From Escherichia coli O157:H7 (GTDB taxonomy: Bacteria > Pseudomonadota > Gammaproteobacteria > Enterobacterales > Enterobacteriaceae), in the NCBI RefSeq assembly GCF_013167455.1, contig NZ_CP038328.1: a stretch of DNA of 64,000 bases; one strand, written 5' to 3'. The notes beneath the pieces were generated by a model that saw nothing but the letters and a program-made list of their open reading frames with translations, ran no database searches and was not told where the DNA came from. Below, piece by piece: positions 1 through 6,728 of the stretch. The position numbers and the translations under genes were made by a program. The first letter of the stretch is position 1; each line of letters starts with the position of its first letter.

Positions 1-333
1 TTCGGCACCGTCACCGAAGCGTTAGAACTTGATACAGCCAAGAATGGTTACATCCTCTTGGTTCAGGACGCAGAGCCAAACTTCGATGTAAATGGCAACT
101 CTCCGGGAACTCCGGATAGTTGGATAAGCTGTAGTGATCGAATGCCTGAAAAGGGCCAGAACGTGCTTATTTCAGTGAATTTCGATAGCTCTCTGGTTGA
201 ACCGCTAATATGCTCCGCACGCTATACCGGAAGCACCTTTCGGCGCGGAGATGCAACGATTAAGCCGGGTAATGGTATTGAGCAAGCAACTCACTGGATG
301 CCGCTACCGGAACCGCCGCAGGAGGTGAAGTGA
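1..333 (+). CDS. DUF551-like prophage protein, 5'-partial (reading frame is open to the window edge; track ORF 58..333 begins at TTG)
   Basis: Frame 1 has no stop from position 1; the product contains a W-I-S...SDRMPE motif typical of DUF551 prophage proteins; stop overlaps the next gene start (ATGA). Confidence 0.5.
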   Translation, partial: FGTVTEALELDTAKNGYILLVQDAEPNFDVNGNSPGTPDSWISCSDRMPEKGQNVLISVNFDSSLVEPLICSARYTGSTFRRGDATIKPGNGIEQATHWMPLPEPPQEVK

Positions 334-905
334 TGAACAACTTAATGATCGACCTTGAGACGATGGGGAAAAATAAGGATGCACCGATCGTTTCCATTGG
401 CGCGGTGTTCTTCACTCCAGAAACCGGAGACATCGGACAAGAATTCTATGCGGTTGTCAGCCTAGACAGTGCTATGAAGCAAGGAGCTACACCTGACGGC
501 GATACCATCCTGTGGTGGTTGAAACAAAGCCCTGAAGCGCGAGCTGCAATCTGTATTGATGATACTTTGTCGATCAGCGATGCTCTCTCAGAACTAAACC
601 ATTTCATTAACCGGCACGCAGACAATACGAAATATTTAAAAGTCTGGGGTAACGGGGCCACCTTCGACAACGTAATTTTACGTGGAGCTTACGAGCGAGC
701 AGGACAAATCTGCCCGTGGGCGTACTGGAATGACCACGATGTACGCACGATCGTTACGCTTGGGCGTTCCATCGGATTCGACCCCAAAATGGACATGCCT
801 TTCGATGGCGAACGGCACAACGCCCTGGCTGATGCCCGTCATCAGGCAAAATATGTTTCCGCTATCTGGCAGAAATTAATTCCTGCCACCAGCACAGAAT
901 TATGA
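330..905 (+). CDS. phage-type DnaQ-like 3'-5' exonuclease (about 190 aa)
   Basis: N-terminal MIDLETMG...PIVSIGAV is an Exo I motif of DEDD exonucleases; this size and context are common in lambdoid prophage early regions. Confidence 0.6.
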   Translation: MMNNLMIDLETMGKNKDAPIVSIGAVFFTPETGDIGQEFYAVVSLDSAMKQGATPDGDTILWWLKQSPEARAAICIDDTLSISDALSELNHFINRHADNTKYLKVWGNGATFDNVILRGAYERAGQICPWAYWNDHDVRTIVTLGRSIGFDPKMDMPFDGERHNALADARHQAKYVSAIWQKLIPATSTEL

Positions 906-914
906 TTTTCCCGG

Positions 915-1223
915 GTGCAGCCGGTTTTGATGGAGAAAATTATGAACACCTTGTTTTTACTGATGGCTGAATTCAATACCCCAAACATTGAACTCTCAGC
1001 AGTTAGCCAAAAGTACTTTGGTATGAGTCCAGCCACGGCAGAAGCAAAAGCAAACGCTTGTAAGTTGCCCGTTCCAACATATCGCATCGGCACATCACAA
1101 AAAGCAAAACGTTGCATCAATATTCAGGATCTTGCGGAATACATAGACAAAAGGCGAGAAGAAGGACGTATCGAGTGGGAACAGGTCAGAACAGTCAAAC
1201 AGAAGGGCAAAGAAAATCACTAA
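915..1223 (+). CDS. PrtN/excisionase-like small DNA-binding protein (true start may be an internal Met, MEKIMNTL or MNTLF)
   Basis: Product MNTLFLLMAEF...LPVPTYRIG resembles PrtN-family pyocin activator/excisionase-like proteins; followed by a strong hairpin. Confidence 0.45.
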   Translation: MQPVLMEKIMNTLFLLMAEFNTPNIELSAVSQKYFGMSPATAEAKANACKLPVPTYRIGTSQKAKRCINIQDLAEYIDKRREEGRIEWEQVRTVKQKGKENH

Positions 1224-1258
1224 AGAAAAAACCCGCCTGAAGGCGGGTTTTCAAAAAG
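1224..1258. terminator. intrinsic terminator hairpin (aacccgcctgaaggcgggtttt), potentially bidirectional
   Basis: Perfect GC-rich inverted repeat with flanking A/T tracts, between convergent gene sets. Confidence 0.55.
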
Positions 1259-1270
1259 CACCAGCTATGA

Positions 1271-1444
1271 TCATGCTGCTTTGAGACGACGAAGCTTACC
1301 CTGCTGCTCTTTACCAGAGACAGTAGCGTGAGTGAACGCATTAGGAGCAGCCTTCATCAGAACTTCAACAGCAGCACCCATACCTACGAATGCTTTCATT
1401 GTGTCGAACTTAACCTGTGGCTTGGTTGCTTTTTGATCTTCCAT
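1271..1444 (-). CDS. small hypothetical protein (about 57 aa), not in the ORF track
   Basis: ATG preceded by GGAG at 7 nt spacing; translation MEDQKATKPQVKFDTMKAFVGMGAAVEVLMKAAPNAFTHATVSGKEQQGKLRRLKAA; ends just upstream of the hairpin at 1224..1258. Confidence 0.3.
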   Translation of the reverse strand: MEDQKATKPQVKFDTMKAFVGMGAAVEVLMKAAPNAFTHATVSGKEQQGKLRRLKAA

Positions 1445-1483
1445 AGAAAACTCCAGAAGTTATACCGAAACAATTCCTGTTGT

Positions 1484-1903
1484 TTACTCATCATCAATAG
1501 ATGATACGCAATATTTATTTTTAAATTTAAGGTTCTTTGGCGTAACTTCATCAGAGATATCAAAACCGTCCAGAATTCTATTGAATGTAGCTTCTGGCAT
1601 ATCATCATGAACAGAAATCTCACCCGATCGCTGCTTTCTAACCATGTTATCCACTCGCCAAATTATAGCTTCAGCGTAAACAACATAACTTGGATGCTTG
1701 ATAAAGCGATGATCACCAGAATTCAAGACGCAAGACGGATCGTGGGGGACACCATCCTTGATACTAGAAATATTAACAACTAAAACACAATAACAATCGT
1801 TAACGGGGTAATAAACAGGATCATTACAAATCACATGAAGATGATTGCATGGTCCAGTTGGGGCAAGCACAGTTCCTTTCCTGTATGGCTGATAATCCGT
1901 CAT
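1484..1903 (-). CDS. hypothetical protein (139 aa), candidate toxin/effector partner of the upstream Panacea-like gene
   Basis: Start ATG overlaps the stop of the upstream gene (ATGA at 1900..1903); no recognisable family motif and no predicted TM segment. Confidence 0.5.
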   Translation of the reverse strand: MTDYQPYRKGTVLAPTGPCNHLHVICNDPVYYPVNDCYCVLVVNISSIKDGVPHDPSCVLNSGDHRFIKHPSYVVYAEAIIWRVDNMVRKQRSGEISVHDDMPEATFNRILDGFDISDEVTPKNLKFKNKYCVSSIDDE

Positions 1904-2472
1904 GATAATTGCAAAGAAAATTCCTTAAGTTTCTGAGATTCTTCCATTTTGCCAATTATGCGATTAGCCTCATCCTCGCTTTTACCCTCACTGATCAGCA
2001 TTTCTTTCAGGTCTATAGGCTTACGAGAATTGCCAGGATCGTGCCACTCTGGACAAACGCTTTCTAAATGCGTCATATTTGCGAGATCAAATCGGTTCAT
2101 ATGCCCATACCGAGAATAGATTTCATCTAAAATCCGGATATCTGCACGACTCAATTCATCAAAGACCTCGTCTGCATCCATTTCCCTCGGATCTGAACGC
2201 AACGATACATTATGCCCGTTCGTCTCTATCAAGTTGTACCAGTAGTCACCAATGCCTTCAGCCTTACCGCGAATCAAGTTCAGCGTATTCGACATGACTG
2301 GTCCAAATTTCATAGAGTAAAGGCTATCTTCGCCGATCATCCTGCCATGCTTCAAAATCGACTGGCGGTTAGACAGATAGAGCAGCTTCATCAATTTCAG
2401 ATATGCCATGCGCCCACCTCTCTTAAGAAGTAGGTATGCAGCCATTTGAGCTACTTTTTCTTCGCAAAACAT
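1900..2472 (-). CDS. Panacea (DUF4065; SocA/GepA-like) domain protein, candidate antitoxin
   Basis: N-terminal pattern YLKLMKLLYLSNR...SLYSMKFGPV matches the LKLQKLLYxA...GPV hallmark of Panacea/GepA phage-associated proteins (from memory, not searched); GAGG SD upstream. Confidence 0.5.
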   Translation of the reverse strand: MFCEEKVAQMAAYLLLKRGGRMAYLKLMKLLYLSNRQSILKHGRMIGEDSLYSMKFGPVMSNTLNLIRGKAEGIGDYWYNLIETNGHNVSLRSDPREMDADEVFDELSRADIRILDEIYSRYGHMNRFDLANMTHLESVCPEWHDPGNSRKPIDLKEMLISEGKSEDEANRIIGKMEESQKLKEFSLQLS

Positions 2473-3119
2473 ATAAGAAACCTCAAAGATAGTGAACTTT
2501 ATAATTATTCTCGATACTTCATGGGTTGCTTCATCACCAACATGAGCTTCTTATGGTGTGCCCACTTGGGCCTAAGCAACCAGTTACCTCGTTTGTCAAG
2601 TTTATAGCTGGCTTTAACCATGGTCAATTGAAGTGATGAGCAAATGATGCTTTCTAAGAATAACAGGTTCCCAATAGGCTCCCACAAAGTGCATAACTAG
2701 TTGTTTTTCAAAAACGGTACATCCTATCGAGCATTGGTGCAACGCTAAACCGACCACTCCAGTGAACGTCAGTTTTTTCAGGCATTGCGCTGGTTTGGTT
2801 GATTTTTTGCATTTCAGAATTACCGTGCATTTTCAAATGTAGAGATTATTTTATCGATATATCATGTGGTTATGTTATTCAGCATCACTGTTCAGGAGGC
2901 TCAATAACGGGGTACTATACCATAACAACAGGAAGCGCCTGTCTCATTGCAAAAGAAAATTGAGATCCTCTCAAGGCATGAAGCTCTCACGAAGTGAATA
3001 TCTAATCTTATTAGATGTTAGCGTTGTGAAAAGCAATGATAAACAATACAGATTCGACGATAAATAAAAATCACACATTAAACTCCGGTGATATCTCTCC
3101 CTGCTAATAGCACTGATAG

Positions 3120-3156
3120 AGAAAAAAAGAACCCAATAAACATTGGGTTCTTTTAT
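3120..3156 (-). terminator. intrinsic terminator for the 318-aa gene (gaacccaat-N-attgggttc followed by a T-run on the minus strand)
   Basis: Inverted repeat plus poly-A on the plus strand immediately downstream of the minus-strand stop at 3192. Confidence 0.5.
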
Positions 3157-3191
3157 GTAATACCTTTCATACCATCGAAGAACTTCACATA

Positions 3192-4148
3192 TTATTTCTC
3201 CGATTTAACCCCGAATAAATCATAAATTAATTTAGAAGTGCCTGTATATATTTTAATCTTTTCCTTTGAGTTTGGGTCAAACGACTTAGCAAAGTCAATT
3301 AATTTCGGTGCAGCATCTCGCATTTTGCTTAAAATATCAGGGGCGAGCGTTCCTTCATTCACCAGATGTGACATCTTATCCAGATAGCCATCAAAATTCA
3401 TTTCTCCCCCATCTGCCAGACGCTTCATCTCTCCCAGGTACTTCTTCATATCACGTTGAGATAATTCTTCAAACTGAGCTTTCAGGTAGTTATCATTATA
3501 TTCATTAATATTCACTCTTCCTGCAAAATCTGAGTAGACACTAGAATATGAAAGGGAAATTAACAGCGAAGCAAATAATTTTAAGCTGTTGTCATCATGT
3601 TCCTGGCAGGCATTAACAAACGTTAAGAAACCAGAACCTATTGCTTGCAAATGTATATTCGCTAAAGGTTCATTATCTTTAGATTCCTCATAAAATAGCT
3701 GAACCGTGGAGGGAAGACCATTCTTGGTTTCTACATCAAAAGTACATCGTTCTATGAGTGTCGCATCTTTATTATCCTCGGGATTACATATACTATTAAT
3801 CGCGAAATGAAAAATAGCCCTGTCAACAACTGATGCAATAAATTCACGATCGTTTAATTCCTCATCAGTACAATCTCCAATATACTCATTGACACACATT
3901 TTGAGATCGTTTATTTGCTTAATTAACGTCACATTTTTTTCACGTGCAGTCCATAAATTATGAGTGATTCTTTGAATAAATAAATCTATTTTTGCAATAA
4001 TTATATCCCGATGACGCATCGTTGAATAATCAATAGATTTACCATATATACTATTTACTTTACCTTTGATTGCATCTTCATTATCGAATTGATTTGAATT
4101 GAGTGTTTTATTAAAGTATCCTGTTGCACCGGGTATTATCTTTAACAT
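3192..4148 (-). CDS. hypothetical protein, 318 aa, AT-rich; possibly the intact form of the yjbL+yjbM locus
   Basis: Long uninterrupted ORF with its own terminator and an AT-rich divergent promoter region shared with zur; no family recognised. Confidence 0.6.
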
Positions 4149-4466
4149 GATTCATCTACCTTTTTTGTCGTACCGTGTCCTCCTTATAAGTGTTTTTGGA
4201 ACCGGTAACTATCAAAAATCGCTCATAATTTTCTGAAATTCGGGTATACGATTAGCCACGGTTAAATAAATAGCGAGTTAACTTGAAGCAATTTATTTAA
4301 AAATGAATTATTAATTATTATCGTGTTGATAATGGTACTGCCAGGCAACACAACATCTTACCTACAAAACAGAAAAGCAACATTACGGCAACAATAAGGG
4401 TTCTCGGTGTTTTTCCTGGAACATGGTAAAGTAAGGACATTCTTAACCCCCACTTTGAGGTGCCCG

Positions 4467-4982
4467 ATGGAAAAGACCACAACGCAGGAGTTATTAGCGC
4501 AGGCTGACAAAATCTGCGCGCAGCGTAATGTGCGCCTGACCCCACAGCGCCTGGAAGTGTTGCGCCTGATGAGTCTGCAGGATGGCGCTATCAGCGCTTA
4601 TGATCTGCTTGATTTGCTGCGCGAAGCTGAACCGCAAGCCAAGCCGCCAACGGTTTATCGCGCGCTGGATTTTCTGCTTGAGCAAGGTTTTGTGCATAAG
4701 GTGGAATCCACCAACAGTTATGTGCTCTGCCATCTGTTCGACCAGCCCACCCATACGTCAGCTATGTTTATTTGCGATCGCTGCGGCGCGGTGAAAGAAG
4801 AATGTGCTGAAGGCGTGGAAGACATCATGCATACGCTGGCGGCAAAAATGGGGTTTGCCCTGCGGCATAATGTGATTGAAGCACATGGGCTCTGTGCGGC
4901 ATGCGTGGAAGTGGAAGCGTGTCGTCATCCTGAACAGTGCCAGCATGATCACTCTGTGCAGGTGAAAAAGAAACCGCGTTAA
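4467..4982 (+). CDS. zur: zinc uptake regulator Zur (Fur family)
   Basis: Product MEKTTTQELLAQADKICAQRNVRLTPQRLEVL... recognised as Zur; GAGG SD upstream; start is the internal Met of track ORF 4407..4982. Confidence 0.9.
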   Translation: MEKTTTQELLAQADKICAQRNVRLTPQRLEVLRLMSLQDGAISAYDLLDLLREAEPQAKPPTVYRALDFLLEQGFVHKVESTNSYVLCHLFDQPTHTSAMFICDRCGAVKEECAEGVEDIMHTLAAKMGFALRHNVIEAHGLCAACVEVEACRHPEQCQHDHSVQVKKKPR

Positions 4983-5023
4983 GAGGGCGTACATCCTTGT
5001 ACACGTCGGGCAGGAGGGATTAA

Positions 5024-5233
5024 TTACCAGCGATATTCATTGCGGGTTTCCCAATCCACGACCTCTTTTTCTGCCTGATCTTTCTGATAACCATAACGTT
5101 CCTGGATTTTACCGACCAGTTGATCACGTTTACCTTCAATGATCGTCATATCATCATCGGTCAGTTTGCCCCATTGCTCTTTCACTTTACCTTTAAACTG
5201 TTTCCAGTTACCGCCGGCTTCATCTTTATTCAT
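5024..5233 (-). CDS. yjbJ: CsbD-like stress protein YjbJ
   Basis: 69-aa product MNKDEAGGNWKQFKGKVKEQWGKLTDDD...; position between zur and dinF. Confidence 0.85.
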   Translation of the reverse strand: MNKDEAGGNWKQFKGKVKEQWGKLTDDDMTIIEGKRDQLVGKIQERYGYQKDQAEKEVVDWETRNEYRW

Positions 5234-5348
5234 AATCAAGACCTCATCGTTAGGTTGTGAATGAGAGTACGTTCACTTTTCTTCTGAACGTGAGATTAAG
5301 TGTAGTCAGCAATTTGGCTTAGGATTATTTATTCAGAATTTTTAACCG

Positions 5349-6728
5349 TCACGTTGCGGCAAACCAGGTACCGTTGCGCCAGTGACGCCGCCAGATAGCT
5401 GCCAGAGAAAGCCCGCGCAACGCCAGAAAGACGGTTAACGCCAACCACAAACCATGATTACCCAGCCACGGCAGCGTAAGGAGCGTCAGCGCAAAACCTG
5501 CGGCGGCCACCGCCATACTGTTACGCATTTCAGCAGCACGCGTTGCGCCTATAAACATGCCGTCCAGCAGATAACACCAGACGCCGACCAACGGCAAAAT
5601 CACCTGCCAGATAAGATAGCGGTCGGCCAGCTGCTGAATCTGGGTTAACGACGCCAGTAACGCAATGATGTGTTCCCCTGCCAGCAAATAAACCACCGAA
5701 AACAGTAACGCTACGATCCCCGACTGGCGGCATGCTGCCCGCCAGACATCCAGCAACTGGCTACCGTCGCGCGCACCGTATGCCTGACCGGAATGTGCTT
5801 CAACCGCGTAGGCAAAACCGTCCAGCGCATAGGCGGTAAAGGTGAGTAGCGTCATCAGAACCGCGTTAACAGCGATAATGTCACTCCCCAGTCGCGCGCC
5901 AAGTACGGTGATCGCGCCGAAACAGAGTTGCAACAACAGCGAGCGCAGCATGATATCGCGGTTAAGTGCCAGCAAGCGACGGAAGTTTCCTCGCCAGGAA
6001 GTTTTCAGCATTTCGCCGGAGATTCCGCGTAGTTTGAGGATTTTACGCACCATTAGCAGACCAATCAGCAATGTTGCATATTCCGCAATAACCGTCGCCA
6101 GCGCCGCGCCCCGCACGTTCATATGCAGTCCCATCACCAGCCAGACATCCAGCACAATGTTGAGGATATTGCCGACCACTAACAAAATTACTGGCGCACG
6201 GGCATATTGCACGCCGAGTAACCAACCAAGTAATACCAGATTCGCCAGCGACGCCGGTGCGCTTAACCAGCGGATTTCAAGAAAGCGCCGCGCCTGTTCC
6301 AGGACTGCTTCACTACCGCCAACAATATGCAGCGCCAGATCGATAATCGGCGTACGCAGCAGCGCAATTAACGCCCCAGCCCCCAACGCCAACAGCAAAG
6401 GTTGCACCAGCGCACGGGCTAATGCCTGAGGATTTTTGGCACCATAAGCCTGCGCAGTCAGCCCGGTGGTGCTCATGCGTAAAAACAGCAACAGCATAAA
6501 GAGAAAGCTGGTCGCCGTTGCACCAACCGCCACGCCGCCCAAATAAACCGGACTATCAAGATGACCAATAACCGCCGTATCGACCAGTCCCAGCAACGGA
6601 ACAGTGATATTGGAGAAAATCATGGGTAAGGCGAGATGCCAAAGTGCTTTATCAGATGAAGTGAGGAATGCCATGCAGACAAGCCTGATGAAGAGAGATG
6701 AAAAACAAACCGCGACGCCAAGCGGCAT
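5349..6728 (-). CDS. dinF: MATE-family efflux protein DinF (SOS-induced)
   Basis: 459-aa polytopic membrane protein immediately downstream of lexA on the same strand. Confidence 0.9.
   Translation of the reverse strand: MPLGVAVCFSSLFIRLVCMAFLTSSDKALWHLALPMIFSNITVPLLGLVDTAVIGHLDSPVYLGGVAVGATATSFLFMLLLFLRMSTTGLTAQAYGAKNPQALARALVQPLLLALGAGALIALLRTPIIDLALHIVGGSEAVLEQARRFLEIRWLSAPASLANLVLLGWLLGVQYARAPVILLVVGNILNIVLDVWLVMGLHMNVRGAALATVIAEYATLLIGLLMVRKILKLRGISGEMLKTSWRGNFRRLLALNRDIMLRSLLLQLCFGAITVLGARLGSDIIAVNAVLMTLLTFTAYALDGFAYAVEAHSGQAYGARDGSQLLDVWRAACRQSGIVALLFSVVYLLAGEHIIALLASLTQIQQLADRYLIWQVILPLVGVWCYLLDGMFIGATRAAEMRNSMAVAAAGFALTLLTLPWLGNHGLWLALTVFLALRGLSLAAIWRRHWRNGTWFAAT

What the first reader, a model, noticed from the sequence alone, without database searches (positions are those of the whole stretch)
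2473..3191. About 0.7 kb non-coding gap between the Panacea-like gene and the 318-aa gene
No convincing ORF occupies this stretch. The only candidates are a TTG-initiated 60-codon frame without SD and a 67-codon plus-strand frame. It must hold the promoter of the coupled operon, and it is the most likely place for the junction between mobile and core DNA (att remnant), a decayed gene, or a small RNA. I see no tandem repeats in it.
Basis: seen in the sequence. Interest (0 to 1): 0.3.

Follow-up and report, generated by a model that had tools for sequence, protein, structure and literature searches.

The report
Prophage junction inside the dusA gene
The "empty" 0.7 kb stretch is the well-known scar left where a lambda-like phage inserted into the start of the E. 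coli dusA gene; this kind of junction is ordinary and has already been described.

Summary
The gap at 2473-3191 is real and holds no intact gene, but it is fully explained. It is the integrase-distal junction of a lambdoid prophage inserted in the 5' end of dusA (tRNA-dihydrouridine synthase A).

Parts, from right to left on the minus strand:
- Terminator of the 318-aa DUF2713 gene (K-12 yjbL+yjbM as one gene), 3125-3154.
- The native yjbM-dusA intergenic region, which should carry the displaced dusA promoter, 2831-3124.
- The original first 35 codons of dusA, 2830 down to 2726. They are 100% identical to K-12 and are now fused to 5 phage codons and a stop at 2708.
- The 8-bp crossover core TCGAGCAT, 2727-2734.
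- A 64-bp conserved phage attachment arm, 2663-2726, with two tandem AGGYTCCC integrase-type repeats.
- A 190-bp leader, 2473-2662, that belongs to the Panacea cargo module.

Four-way alignments of the window, an empty site (K-12), attP (phages Lys8385Vzw and mEp460) and the opposite junction (ETEC H10407) show a clean reciprocal exchange. The same junction occurs in 661 of 5426 complete E. coli genomes, and PGAP annotates the dusA fragment as a pseudogene. No structured RNA or extra gene was found. The promoter claim remains an inference. Novelty: already known. Interest: low.

The parts
3125..3154 (-). Intrinsic terminator of the 318-aa DUF2713 gene (the K-12 yjbL+yjbM equivalent). It is a 13-bp perfect stem with a 4-nt loop and a U-run, and it has A/T runs on both sides.
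   Evidence: Terminator scan, inverted repeat I2 and the dominant hairpin in the fold. The element is also present in K-12. The weak sub-threshold Rfam AgrB hit at 3078-3155 (25.6 bits against a gathering score of 40) is this hairpin.
2831..3124 (-). Native chromosomal yjbM-dusA intergenic region, which should carry the displaced dusA promoter and leader. The best promoter candidates are overlapping extended -10 elements (TGtTATGGT / TGgTATAGT) at about 2914-2927. A variable patch with an imperfect hairpin lies at 2987-3035.
   Evidence: The region is collinear with K-12 L002 2808-3169 at 91.7% identity. By segment, identity is 98.2% for 2831-2995, 68% for 2996-3035 and 90-92% beyond that. Extended -10 candidates come from my own loose scan. 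The standard scan finds none here, so the promoter position is an inference.
2708..2830 (-). dusA' remnant. It comprises the original start codon and the first 35 codons of dusA (2830 down to 2726, 100% identical to K-12). These are fused at the crossover to 5 phage-encoded codons (RMYRF) and a TGA stop at 2708-2710, giving a 40-codon chimeric ORF.
   Evidence: Translation is MHGNSEMQKINQTSAMPEKTDVHWSGRFSVAPMLD|RMYRF*, against K-12 DusA MHGNSEMQ...APMLDWTDRHCRYF. PGAP annotates the same 105 bp as 'tRNA-dihydrouridine synthase, incomplete, missing C-terminus' in H10407 and RM8385.
2727..2734 (.). Crossover core (overlap region) of site-specific recombination. It reads TCGAGCAT on the plus strand and ATGCTCGA on the dusA strand (codons Met-Leu-As(p)).
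   Evidence: This is the only segment identical in attB (K-12), attP (Lys8385Vzw, mEp460), the window junction and the opposite junction in H10407. To its right the window follows K-12 and to its left it follows the phage. H10407's integrase-side junction shows the reciprocal pattern.
2663..2726 (.). Conserved phage attP arm. It holds two tandem 11-nt arm-type repeats (ACAGGTTCCCA at 2663-2673, ATAGGCTCCCA at 2674-2684) and an IHF-like match (AAACAACTAGTTA, 2706..2694, minus strand) between those repeats and the core.
   Evidence: This arm is shared by phages with different cargo (mEp460 against Lys8385Vzw). The repeat family includes a third copy on the integrase-side arm. The AGGTTCCC motif, allowing one mismatch, occurs 5 times in about 240 bp of attP against 26 times in the whole 64-kb window on both strands. 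The IHF match has one mismatch to WATCAANNNNTTR. Protein binding is an inference.
2473..2662 (-). Leader and upstream region of the Panacea cargo operon. It is specific to the cargo module and is not part of the conserved att arm. It contains a promoter-like site (TTGACC-17-TAAACT, 2627..2599), a 14-bp palindrome (TTGACCATGGTTAA, 2614-2627) that overlaps the -35 hexamer, and a Shine-Dalgarno GAGG at 2482-2485.
   Evidence: The stretch is identical in Lys8385Vzw, but mEp460 carries unrelated sequence here because it has different cargo. See the promoter scan and palindrome I6. The putative leader folds with z = -0.74. The whole gap including this stretch is present in 164 E. coli genomes.

Best explanation
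The gap is the integrase-distal (excisionase-proximal) attachment junction of a lambdoid prophage of the Lys8385Vzw/mEp460 type. [quoted passage not shown]

Recombination occurred in an 8-bp core (ATGCTCGA, codons Met-Leu-Asp of the conserved APMLDWTDRH segment of DusA). As a result, the host's own dusA promoter, leader and first 35 codons were left behind at this end of the prophage (2726-3124). The phage's own substitute dusA 5' end, which sits next to int, was joined to the rest of dusA at the other end. That end lies to the left of position 1, outside the window.

The left 255 bp of the gap is phage DNA. It consists of a 64-bp conserved att arm with two tandem integrase arm-type sites and a probable IHF site, followed by the 190-bp upstream region of the Panacea-domain / 139-aa cargo operon.

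Shown here: the breakpoint, the reciprocal junction pattern, the remnant, the repeats and the population frequency. Inferred: that Int and IHF bind the listed sites; that the cargo operon is transcribed from the sigma-70-like site at 2627..2599; and that it may also be transcribed by read-through from the displaced dusA promoter, since no terminator is predicted between them.
For: - Synteny with K-12: the plsB-dgkA-lexA-dinF-yjbJ-zur-yjbLM order is kept, and homology runs through the yjbM-dusA spacer and 104 nt of dusA, then stops abruptly at about 2727. Identity is 100% for 2727-2830 and 25-40% to the left of that.
- Window 1-2741 is 99.2% identical to the induced phage Lys8385Vzw, where the same sequence continues directly into attP and an integrase gene. 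mEp460 shares only the 64-bp arm and the core.
- Four-way alignments show reciprocal exchange. attB is GCACCAATGCTCGACTGGACGGAC. attP is GCTCCtATGCTCGATAGGATGTACCG. The window has the attB left half joined to the attP right half. The H10407 integrase-side junction has the attP left half joined to the attB right half.
- In H10407 the other prophage end carries a tyrosine integrase 88 bp from an intact 345-aa dusA. The first 35 residues of that DusA are the phage version, 26 of 35 identical to K-12.
- PGAP annotates the remnant as a partial dusA pseudogene.
- A 126-bp junction probe is covered at 80% or more in 661 of 5426 complete E. coli genomes. The rest match only its dusA half, inside an intact dusA.
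- Published work describes exactly this arrangement for dusA-specific integrases: original 5' end at the outer island boundary, element-supplied new 5' end, semi-conserved 21-bp att repeats (PMC4482086). It also states that the Stx1a phage Lys8385Vzw is integrated in dusA (PMC7946995).
Against: Nothing contradicts the junction itself. There are three limits:
- The integrase-side end is not in the window, so I cannot tell whether this particular prophage is complete or still excisable. At least one O157:H7 genome with the same junction carries a degraded element.
- Promoter assignments are weak. The region has 3 promoter-like hits against 3.1 expected by chance.
- Integrase and IHF binding to the proposed sites rests on sequence pattern only.
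Confidence: 0.95

Rival explanations
1. The gap encodes a small regulatory RNA or a cis-regulatory structured RNA, either phage- or host-encoded.
For: The spacer is long, and the 165 nt upstream of dusA are 98% identical to K-12. The fold z-scores are mildly negative: -2.1 for the putative dusA leader and -2.1 for 2960-3160.
Against: - An Rfam E-value scan of 1-6000 gives nothing at gathering score. The only hit in the gap (AgrB, 25.6 bits against 40, E = 0.44) is the terminator hairpin.
- The -2.1 z-score for 2960-3160 is explained by that terminator.
- The Panacea leader folds no better than shuffled sequence (z = -0.74).
- K-12 annotates no RNA in this spacer.
- Within-species conservation carries no covariation information.
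Confidence: 0.05
2. The gap holds an unannotated small protein gene. Candidates are the 60-codon TTG frame (2505-2687, minus), the 67-codon frame (2864-3067, plus) and the 40-codon dusA'-phage chimera (2708-2830, minus).
For: The ORFs exist. The 40-codon chimera keeps the genuine dusA start region, and the same 5 extra codons plus stop are conserved in attP of both Lys8385Vzw and mEp460. It is therefore probably translated as a by-product.
Against: - The 67-codon frame is frameshifted in K-12 and lies antisense to the dusA promoter and leader.
- The 60-codon frame straddles the cargo/arm boundary at 2662/2663, so it is not conserved in mEp460. It also lacks a Shine-Dalgarno sequence.
- None of the three has a Pfam, PADLOC or PHROG match.
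- PGAP calls none of them in three genomes.
Confidence: 0.07
3. The dusA fragment is a relic of an old deletion or rearrangement rather than a product of site-specific integration, so the adjacent phage genes would be an unrelated remnant.
For: Only 2.7 kb of phage DNA is visible in the window. Some genomes with this junction carry decayed elements.
Against: The breakpoint coincides to the base with the attP core of inducible phages and with the reciprocal junction in H10407. The same exact junction recurs in 661 genomes of diverse serotypes. The phage Lys8385Vzw, which carries this arm, was obtained by induction (PMC7946995).
Confidence: 0.03

Closest known systems
dusA-specific integrative elements and prophages with DusA-associated integrases (Farrugia et al. 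2015, NAR 43:4547, PMC4482086)
   Same: Insertion is in the conserved 5' part of dusA. The original dusA 5' end is left as the outer boundary of the element. The element supplies a replacement 5' end. The junctions carry semi-conserved imperfect direct repeats: here 17 of 23 positions match between the two junctions, with an 8-bp perfect core. A tyrosine integrase lies next to the restored dusA.
   Different: Nothing essential differs. This is a lambdoid E. coli phage version. I did not place the integrase in the published phylogeny, and I could not compare the repeats with the published logo because figures are not held.
Phages Lys8385Vzw (Stx1a-converting, MT225100) and mEp460 (NC_019716): their attP regions
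   Same: Window 1-2741 is 99.2% identical to Lys8385Vzw, including the Panacea cargo, its leader, the att arm and the core. mEp460 shares the arm-type repeats, the core and the substitute dusA 5' end.
   Different: In the window the arm is joined to chromosomal dusA' rather than to the phage's substitute dusA 5' end and int. The deposited Lys8385Vzw attP has the 8-bp core duplicated. mEp460 carries a different cargo gene.
Phage lambda attL/attR architecture (core plus arm-type Int sites plus IHF sites)
   Same: A short identical core is flanked by arms that carry repeated arm-type motifs on both sides, with an IHF-like site between arm sites and core.
   Different: attP lies between xis (plus cargo) and int, so int and xis end up at opposite ends of the prophage. 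The target is inside a protein-coding gene, which is repaired by a phage-borne 5' end and promoter. No binding data exist.
Integrases that target the 3' ends of tRNA/tmRNA genes and restore them with element-borne copies
   Same: The logic is the same: the element integrates into a conserved gene and carries a surrogate copy of the displaced part, so the host gene stays functional.
   Different: Here the displaced part is the 5' end. The element must therefore also bring a promoter and start codon, and the host promoter is left pointing into the prophage.

Membership tests
dusA-specific integrative element junction (Farrugia et al. 2015) | Insertion within the 5' end of dusA | tested here: met
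   Homology to K-12 dusA covers codons 1-35 and stops at 2727.
dusA-specific integrative element junction (Farrugia et al. 2015) | Original dusA 5' end retained at the outer boundary of the element | tested here: met
   The remnant at 2726-2830 is 100% identical to K-12 and adjoins phage DNA. PGAP annotates it as a pseudogene in H10407 and RM8385.
dusA-specific integrative element junction (Farrugia et al. 2015) | Element supplies a replacement 5' end that restores the dusA reading frame | tested here: met
   This is seen in attP of Lys8385Vzw and mEp460, and in the integrase-side junction of H10407, where dusA is intact at 345 aa with a phage-type N-terminus. It cannot be seen in the window itself because that end lies outside it.
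dusA-specific integrative element junction (Farrugia et al. 2015) | Semi-conserved imperfect direct repeats of about 21 bp at both junctions | tested here: met
   CCAATGCTCGATAGGATGTACCG (window) against CCTATGCTCGACTGGACGGACAG (H10407 integrase side): 17 of 23 identical, with an 8-bp perfect core. Not compared with the published logo.
dusA-specific integrative element junction (Farrugia et al. 2015) | Tyrosine integrase gene adjacent to the restored dusA, belonging to the DAI clade | tested here: inconclusive
   The adjacent tyrosine integrase is seen in H10407 and in both phages. It is not in the window, and clade membership was not tested phylogenetically.
Lambda-type attP arm | Repeated arm-type integrase-binding motifs on both arms, distinct from the core | tested here: met
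   The AGGYTCCC motif occurs twice in tandem on this arm (2665-2672, 2676-2683) and three times on the integrase-side arm of attP. The background rate is about 0.3 per 800 bp. Binding itself cannot be tested with these tools.
Known structured RNA family (Rfam 15) | Covariance-model score at or above the family's gathering threshold | tested here: not met
   No hit in 2473-3191 reaches threshold. The best is AgrB at 25.6 bits against 40.
Panacea-domain toxin-antitoxin pair (the flanking operon whose leader lies in the gap) | SocA/Panacea domain protein encoded next to, and translationally coupled with, a partner gene | tested here: met
   PF13274 matches at E = 2.2e-19. The 139-aa ORF overlaps the Panacea stop by 4 nt.
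Panacea-domain toxin-antitoxin pair (the flanking operon whose leader lies in the gap) | Partner is a growth-inhibiting toxin that the Panacea protein neutralises | not testable with these tools
   The partner has no Pfam or PADLOC match and only an unknown-function PHROG, phrog_19071.

The most novel reading that the evidence does not exclude
Integration places the displaced host dusA promoter, leader and start codon directly upstream of the phage's accessory operon (Panacea domain plus 139-aa partner) and in the same orientation. No terminator is predicted in between. In the lysogen this TA/defence-like cargo could therefore be driven partly by a host housekeeping promoter. In the free phage, the phage's own substitute dusA promoter occupies the equivalent position. 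Every cargo variant I looked at in this hotspot has the same orientation (Panacea, CoiA, a 177-aa protein, and a pair deposited as 'YafO/YafM'). That is consistent with a selected arrangement in which cargo is expressed from a dusA-type promoter across the att site.
Probability: 0.2. Interest if true: 0.4.

Novelty: already known. Interest (0 to 1): 0.1.

Why it matters
The value is mainly housekeeping. The result fixes the right-hand boundary of the prophage to the base (core at 2727-2734) and explains all 719 bp of an apparently empty stretch. It also shows that the DNA to the right, from 2727 onwards, is core chromosome.

It gives a simple probe for typing. The 126-bp junction at 2665-2790 detects occupancy of dusA by this phage family and finds it in 12% of complete E. 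coli genomes, including Stx-converting phages.

The only point with some further biological interest is that accessory toxin-antitoxin/defence-like modules sit in a hotspot immediately inside the att arm. There they lie downstream of, and point the same way as, the displaced host dusA promoter.

Tried and rejected
- Rfam E-value scan of 1-6000: only sub-threshold hits. The one in the gap (AgrB-like) is the yjbLM terminator hairpin, so it was rejected.
- RNA folds of the putative Panacea leader, the dusA leader and the distal spacer: z-scores were -0.7, -2.1 and -2.1. The last is due to the terminator, so there is no case for a structured RNA.
- Pfam, PADLOC and PHROG searches of the small ORFs in the gap: no matches.
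- The 67-codon plus-strand ORF was rejected because K-12 has a frameshift in it.
- The 60-codon TTG ORF was rejected because it crosses the boundary between cargo and conserved arm.
- Standard promoter scan: the number of matches does not exceed shuffled controls, so promoters are reported only as candidates. My looser scan adds extended -10 candidates upstream of dusA.
- Tandem Repeats Finder: nothing found.
- A literature search for 'yjbM' returned only Bacillus (p)ppGpp synthetase papers, which are irrelevant.

Full report
**Observation**

The gap is real. The Panacea-domain gene (PF13274, E = 2.2e-19) starts at 2472 on the minus strand. The 318-aa gene (DUF2713, E = 1e-143) ends at 3192. 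No intact gene lies between them. PGAP annotation of near-identical genomes shows only a 105-bp partial 'tRNA-dihydrouridine synthase' pseudogene (H10407, RM8385, O157:H7 7636). Tandem Repeats Finder finds nothing.

**Context**

The right side of the window is E. coli core chromosome in the K-12 order plsB-dgkA-lexA-dinF-yjbJ-zur. The 318-aa gene corresponds to K-12 yjbL plus yjbM as a single reading frame. In K-12 the next gene is dusA, 362 bp downstream.

**Breakpoint**

- Aligning the window with K-12 gives continuous homology from the end of the DUF2713 gene, through the whole yjbM-dusA spacer, into dusA.
- Identity is 90-92% for 3036-3260, 68% for a variable patch at 2996-3035, 98.2% for the 165 nt upstream of the dusA ATG, and 100% for 2727-2830. 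It then collapses to 25-40%.
- The retained coding part reads MHGNSEMQKINQTSAMPEKTDVHWSGRFSVAPMLD, identical to K-12 DusA residues 1-35. It is followed by RMYRF and a stop, where K-12 has WTDRHCRYF.

**The other partner**

Window 1-2741 is 99.2% identical to phage Lys8385Vzw. In that phage the same sequence (excisionase-like PrtN gene, a 57-aa gene, the 139-aa gene, the Panacea gene) runs straight into an intergenic attP region and then an integrase gene. Phage mEp460 has the same layout with a different cargo gene.

**Reciprocal exchange**

Four-way alignments give these sequences:
- attB (K-12): GCACCAATGCTCGACTGGACGGAC.
- attP (mEp460): GCTCCTATGCTCGATAGGATGTACCG.
- Window junction: GCACCAATGCTCGATAGGATGTACCG.
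- H10407 integrase-side junction: GCTCCTATGCTCGACTGGACGGAC.

The only segment common to all four is ATGCTCGA, which is window 2727-2734. This is the signature of conservative site-specific recombination.

In attP the sequence on the integrase side of the core is a diverged copy of the dusA 5' end with its own ATG. In H10407 the far end of a roughly 40-kb prophage carries a tyrosine integrase 88 bp from an intact dusA. The first 35 residues of that DusA are the phage version, 26 of 35 identical to K-12.

**Anatomy of the phage side**

- Only 2663-2726 is shared between Lys8385Vzw and mEp460, so this 64-bp stretch is the conserved att arm.
- The arm begins with two tandem 11-nt repeats, ACAGGTTCCCA and ATAGGCTCCCA. 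The same family recurs on the integrase-side arm of attP.
- Allowing one mismatch, the 8-nt motif AGGTTCCC occurs five times within about 240 bp of attP. It occurs 26 times in the whole 64-kb window on both strands. I read these as arm-type integrase-binding sites (inference).
- An IHF-like match with one mismatch lies between these repeats and the core.
- The remaining 190 bp (2473-2662) travels with the Panacea cargo. It contains the only decent sigma-70 match on the right strand (TTGACC-17-TAAACT, 2627..2599), and a 14-bp palindrome overlaps the -35 hexamer. A GAGG Shine-Dalgarno sequence lies 8 nt before the ATG.
- The promoter scan finds no more sites than shuffled sequence does, so this is only a candidate promoter.

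**Host side**

- The DUF2713 gene ends in a strong intrinsic terminator at 3125-3154.
- The displaced dusA promoter should lie in the 98%-conserved 165 nt upstream of the ATG. The best candidates are overlapping extended -10 elements around 2914-2927 (inference).
- No terminator is predicted between this region and the Panacea gene. Transcription from the orphaned dusA promoter could therefore run across the core into the cargo operon. This is untested.

**Alternatives**

- Structured RNA: no Rfam family reaches threshold and the folds are unremarkable.
- The 67-codon plus-strand ORF is frameshifted in K-12.
- The 60-codon TTG ORF crosses the cargo/arm boundary.
- Neither ORF, nor the 40-codon chimera, matches Pfam, PADLOC or PHROGs.

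**Frequency**

The whole gap is covered at 80% or more in 164 of 5426 complete E. coli genomes. A 126-bp probe that spans only the conserved arm and the dusA remnant is covered at 80% or more in 661 genomes. Almost all others match only its dusA half, inside an intact dusA.

**What is known**

Farrugia et al. 2015 (PMC4482086) described this system. Their account covers integrases targeting the 5' end of dusA, the new 5' end supplied by the element, the original 5' end forming the outer boundary, and semi-conserved 21-bp att repeats. Zhang et al. 2021 (PMC7946995) state that the Stx1a prophage Lys8385Vzw sits in dusA.

The finding is therefore an instance of a known arrangement. What I add is base-level mapping for this phage group, the candidate arm-type repeats, and the observation that the 190 bp next to the Panacea gene belongs to the cargo module rather than to the att arm.

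**Verdict**

There is no evidence for a small RNA, and the promoter claim remains inferred. Novelty: already known. Interest: low (0.1).

Noticed in passing
window 1271-2472 (minus strand); compare L001 3626-6000, L004 4771-5674, L007 3011-3914, L008 3420-4629: The segment between the PrtN-like excisionase gene and attP is a cargo hotspot in this phage group. The cargo varies: Panacea plus a 139-aa partner (window, Lys8385Vzw); CoiA plus the Panacea pair (H10407); a 177-aa hypothetical protein (mEp460, O157:H7 7636); and a pair the depositor labelled 'YafO/YafM' (PhiR40_1). In every case the genes point away from attP, in the same direction as the dusA promoter that lies across the core.
   Followed up: partly
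window 3192-4148 (minus strand): The 318-aa DUF2713 gene is a single intact frame here. K-12 annotates it as two genes, yjbL (84 aa) and yjbM (235 aa), and RM8385 has it frameshifted. The K-12 pair therefore looks like a split version of one gene.
   Followed up: partly
window 2987-3035: There is a short hypervariable patch in the otherwise conserved yjbM-dusA spacer. It is 68% identical to K-12, against 98-100% next to it, and it coincides with an imperfect 20-nt-arm hairpin. Its cause is unknown.
   Followed up: no
L003 6225-6245 (Lys8385Vzw attP): The deposited Lys8385Vzw genome has the 8-bp core duplicated (CGAGCATT CGAGCATG). The duplication is absent from mEp460 attP and from the window junction. 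It could be a real variant or an assembly artefact at the circularisation point.
   Followed up: no
L005 33723-33812 (ETEC H10407, other prophage end): int and the restored dusA are divergently transcribed, only 88 bp apart, with three arm-type repeats in between. Integrase binding there could affect both its own expression and dusA expression.
   Followed up: no
window 1484-1903 (minus strand): The 139-aa partner of the Panacea gene has no Pfam or PADLOC match and only an unknown-function PHROG (phrog_19071, E = 3e-31). PGAP starts it 11 codons later, which removes the 4-nt overlap with the Panacea gene.
   Followed up: partly
window 1097-1322: A cluster of sub-threshold Rfam hits (sroH, RNAI, rnk leader, P9; 19-30 bits, all below gathering score) lies across the 3' end of the PrtN-like gene and the convergent 57-aa gene. 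It is probably a shared terminator.
   Followed up: no
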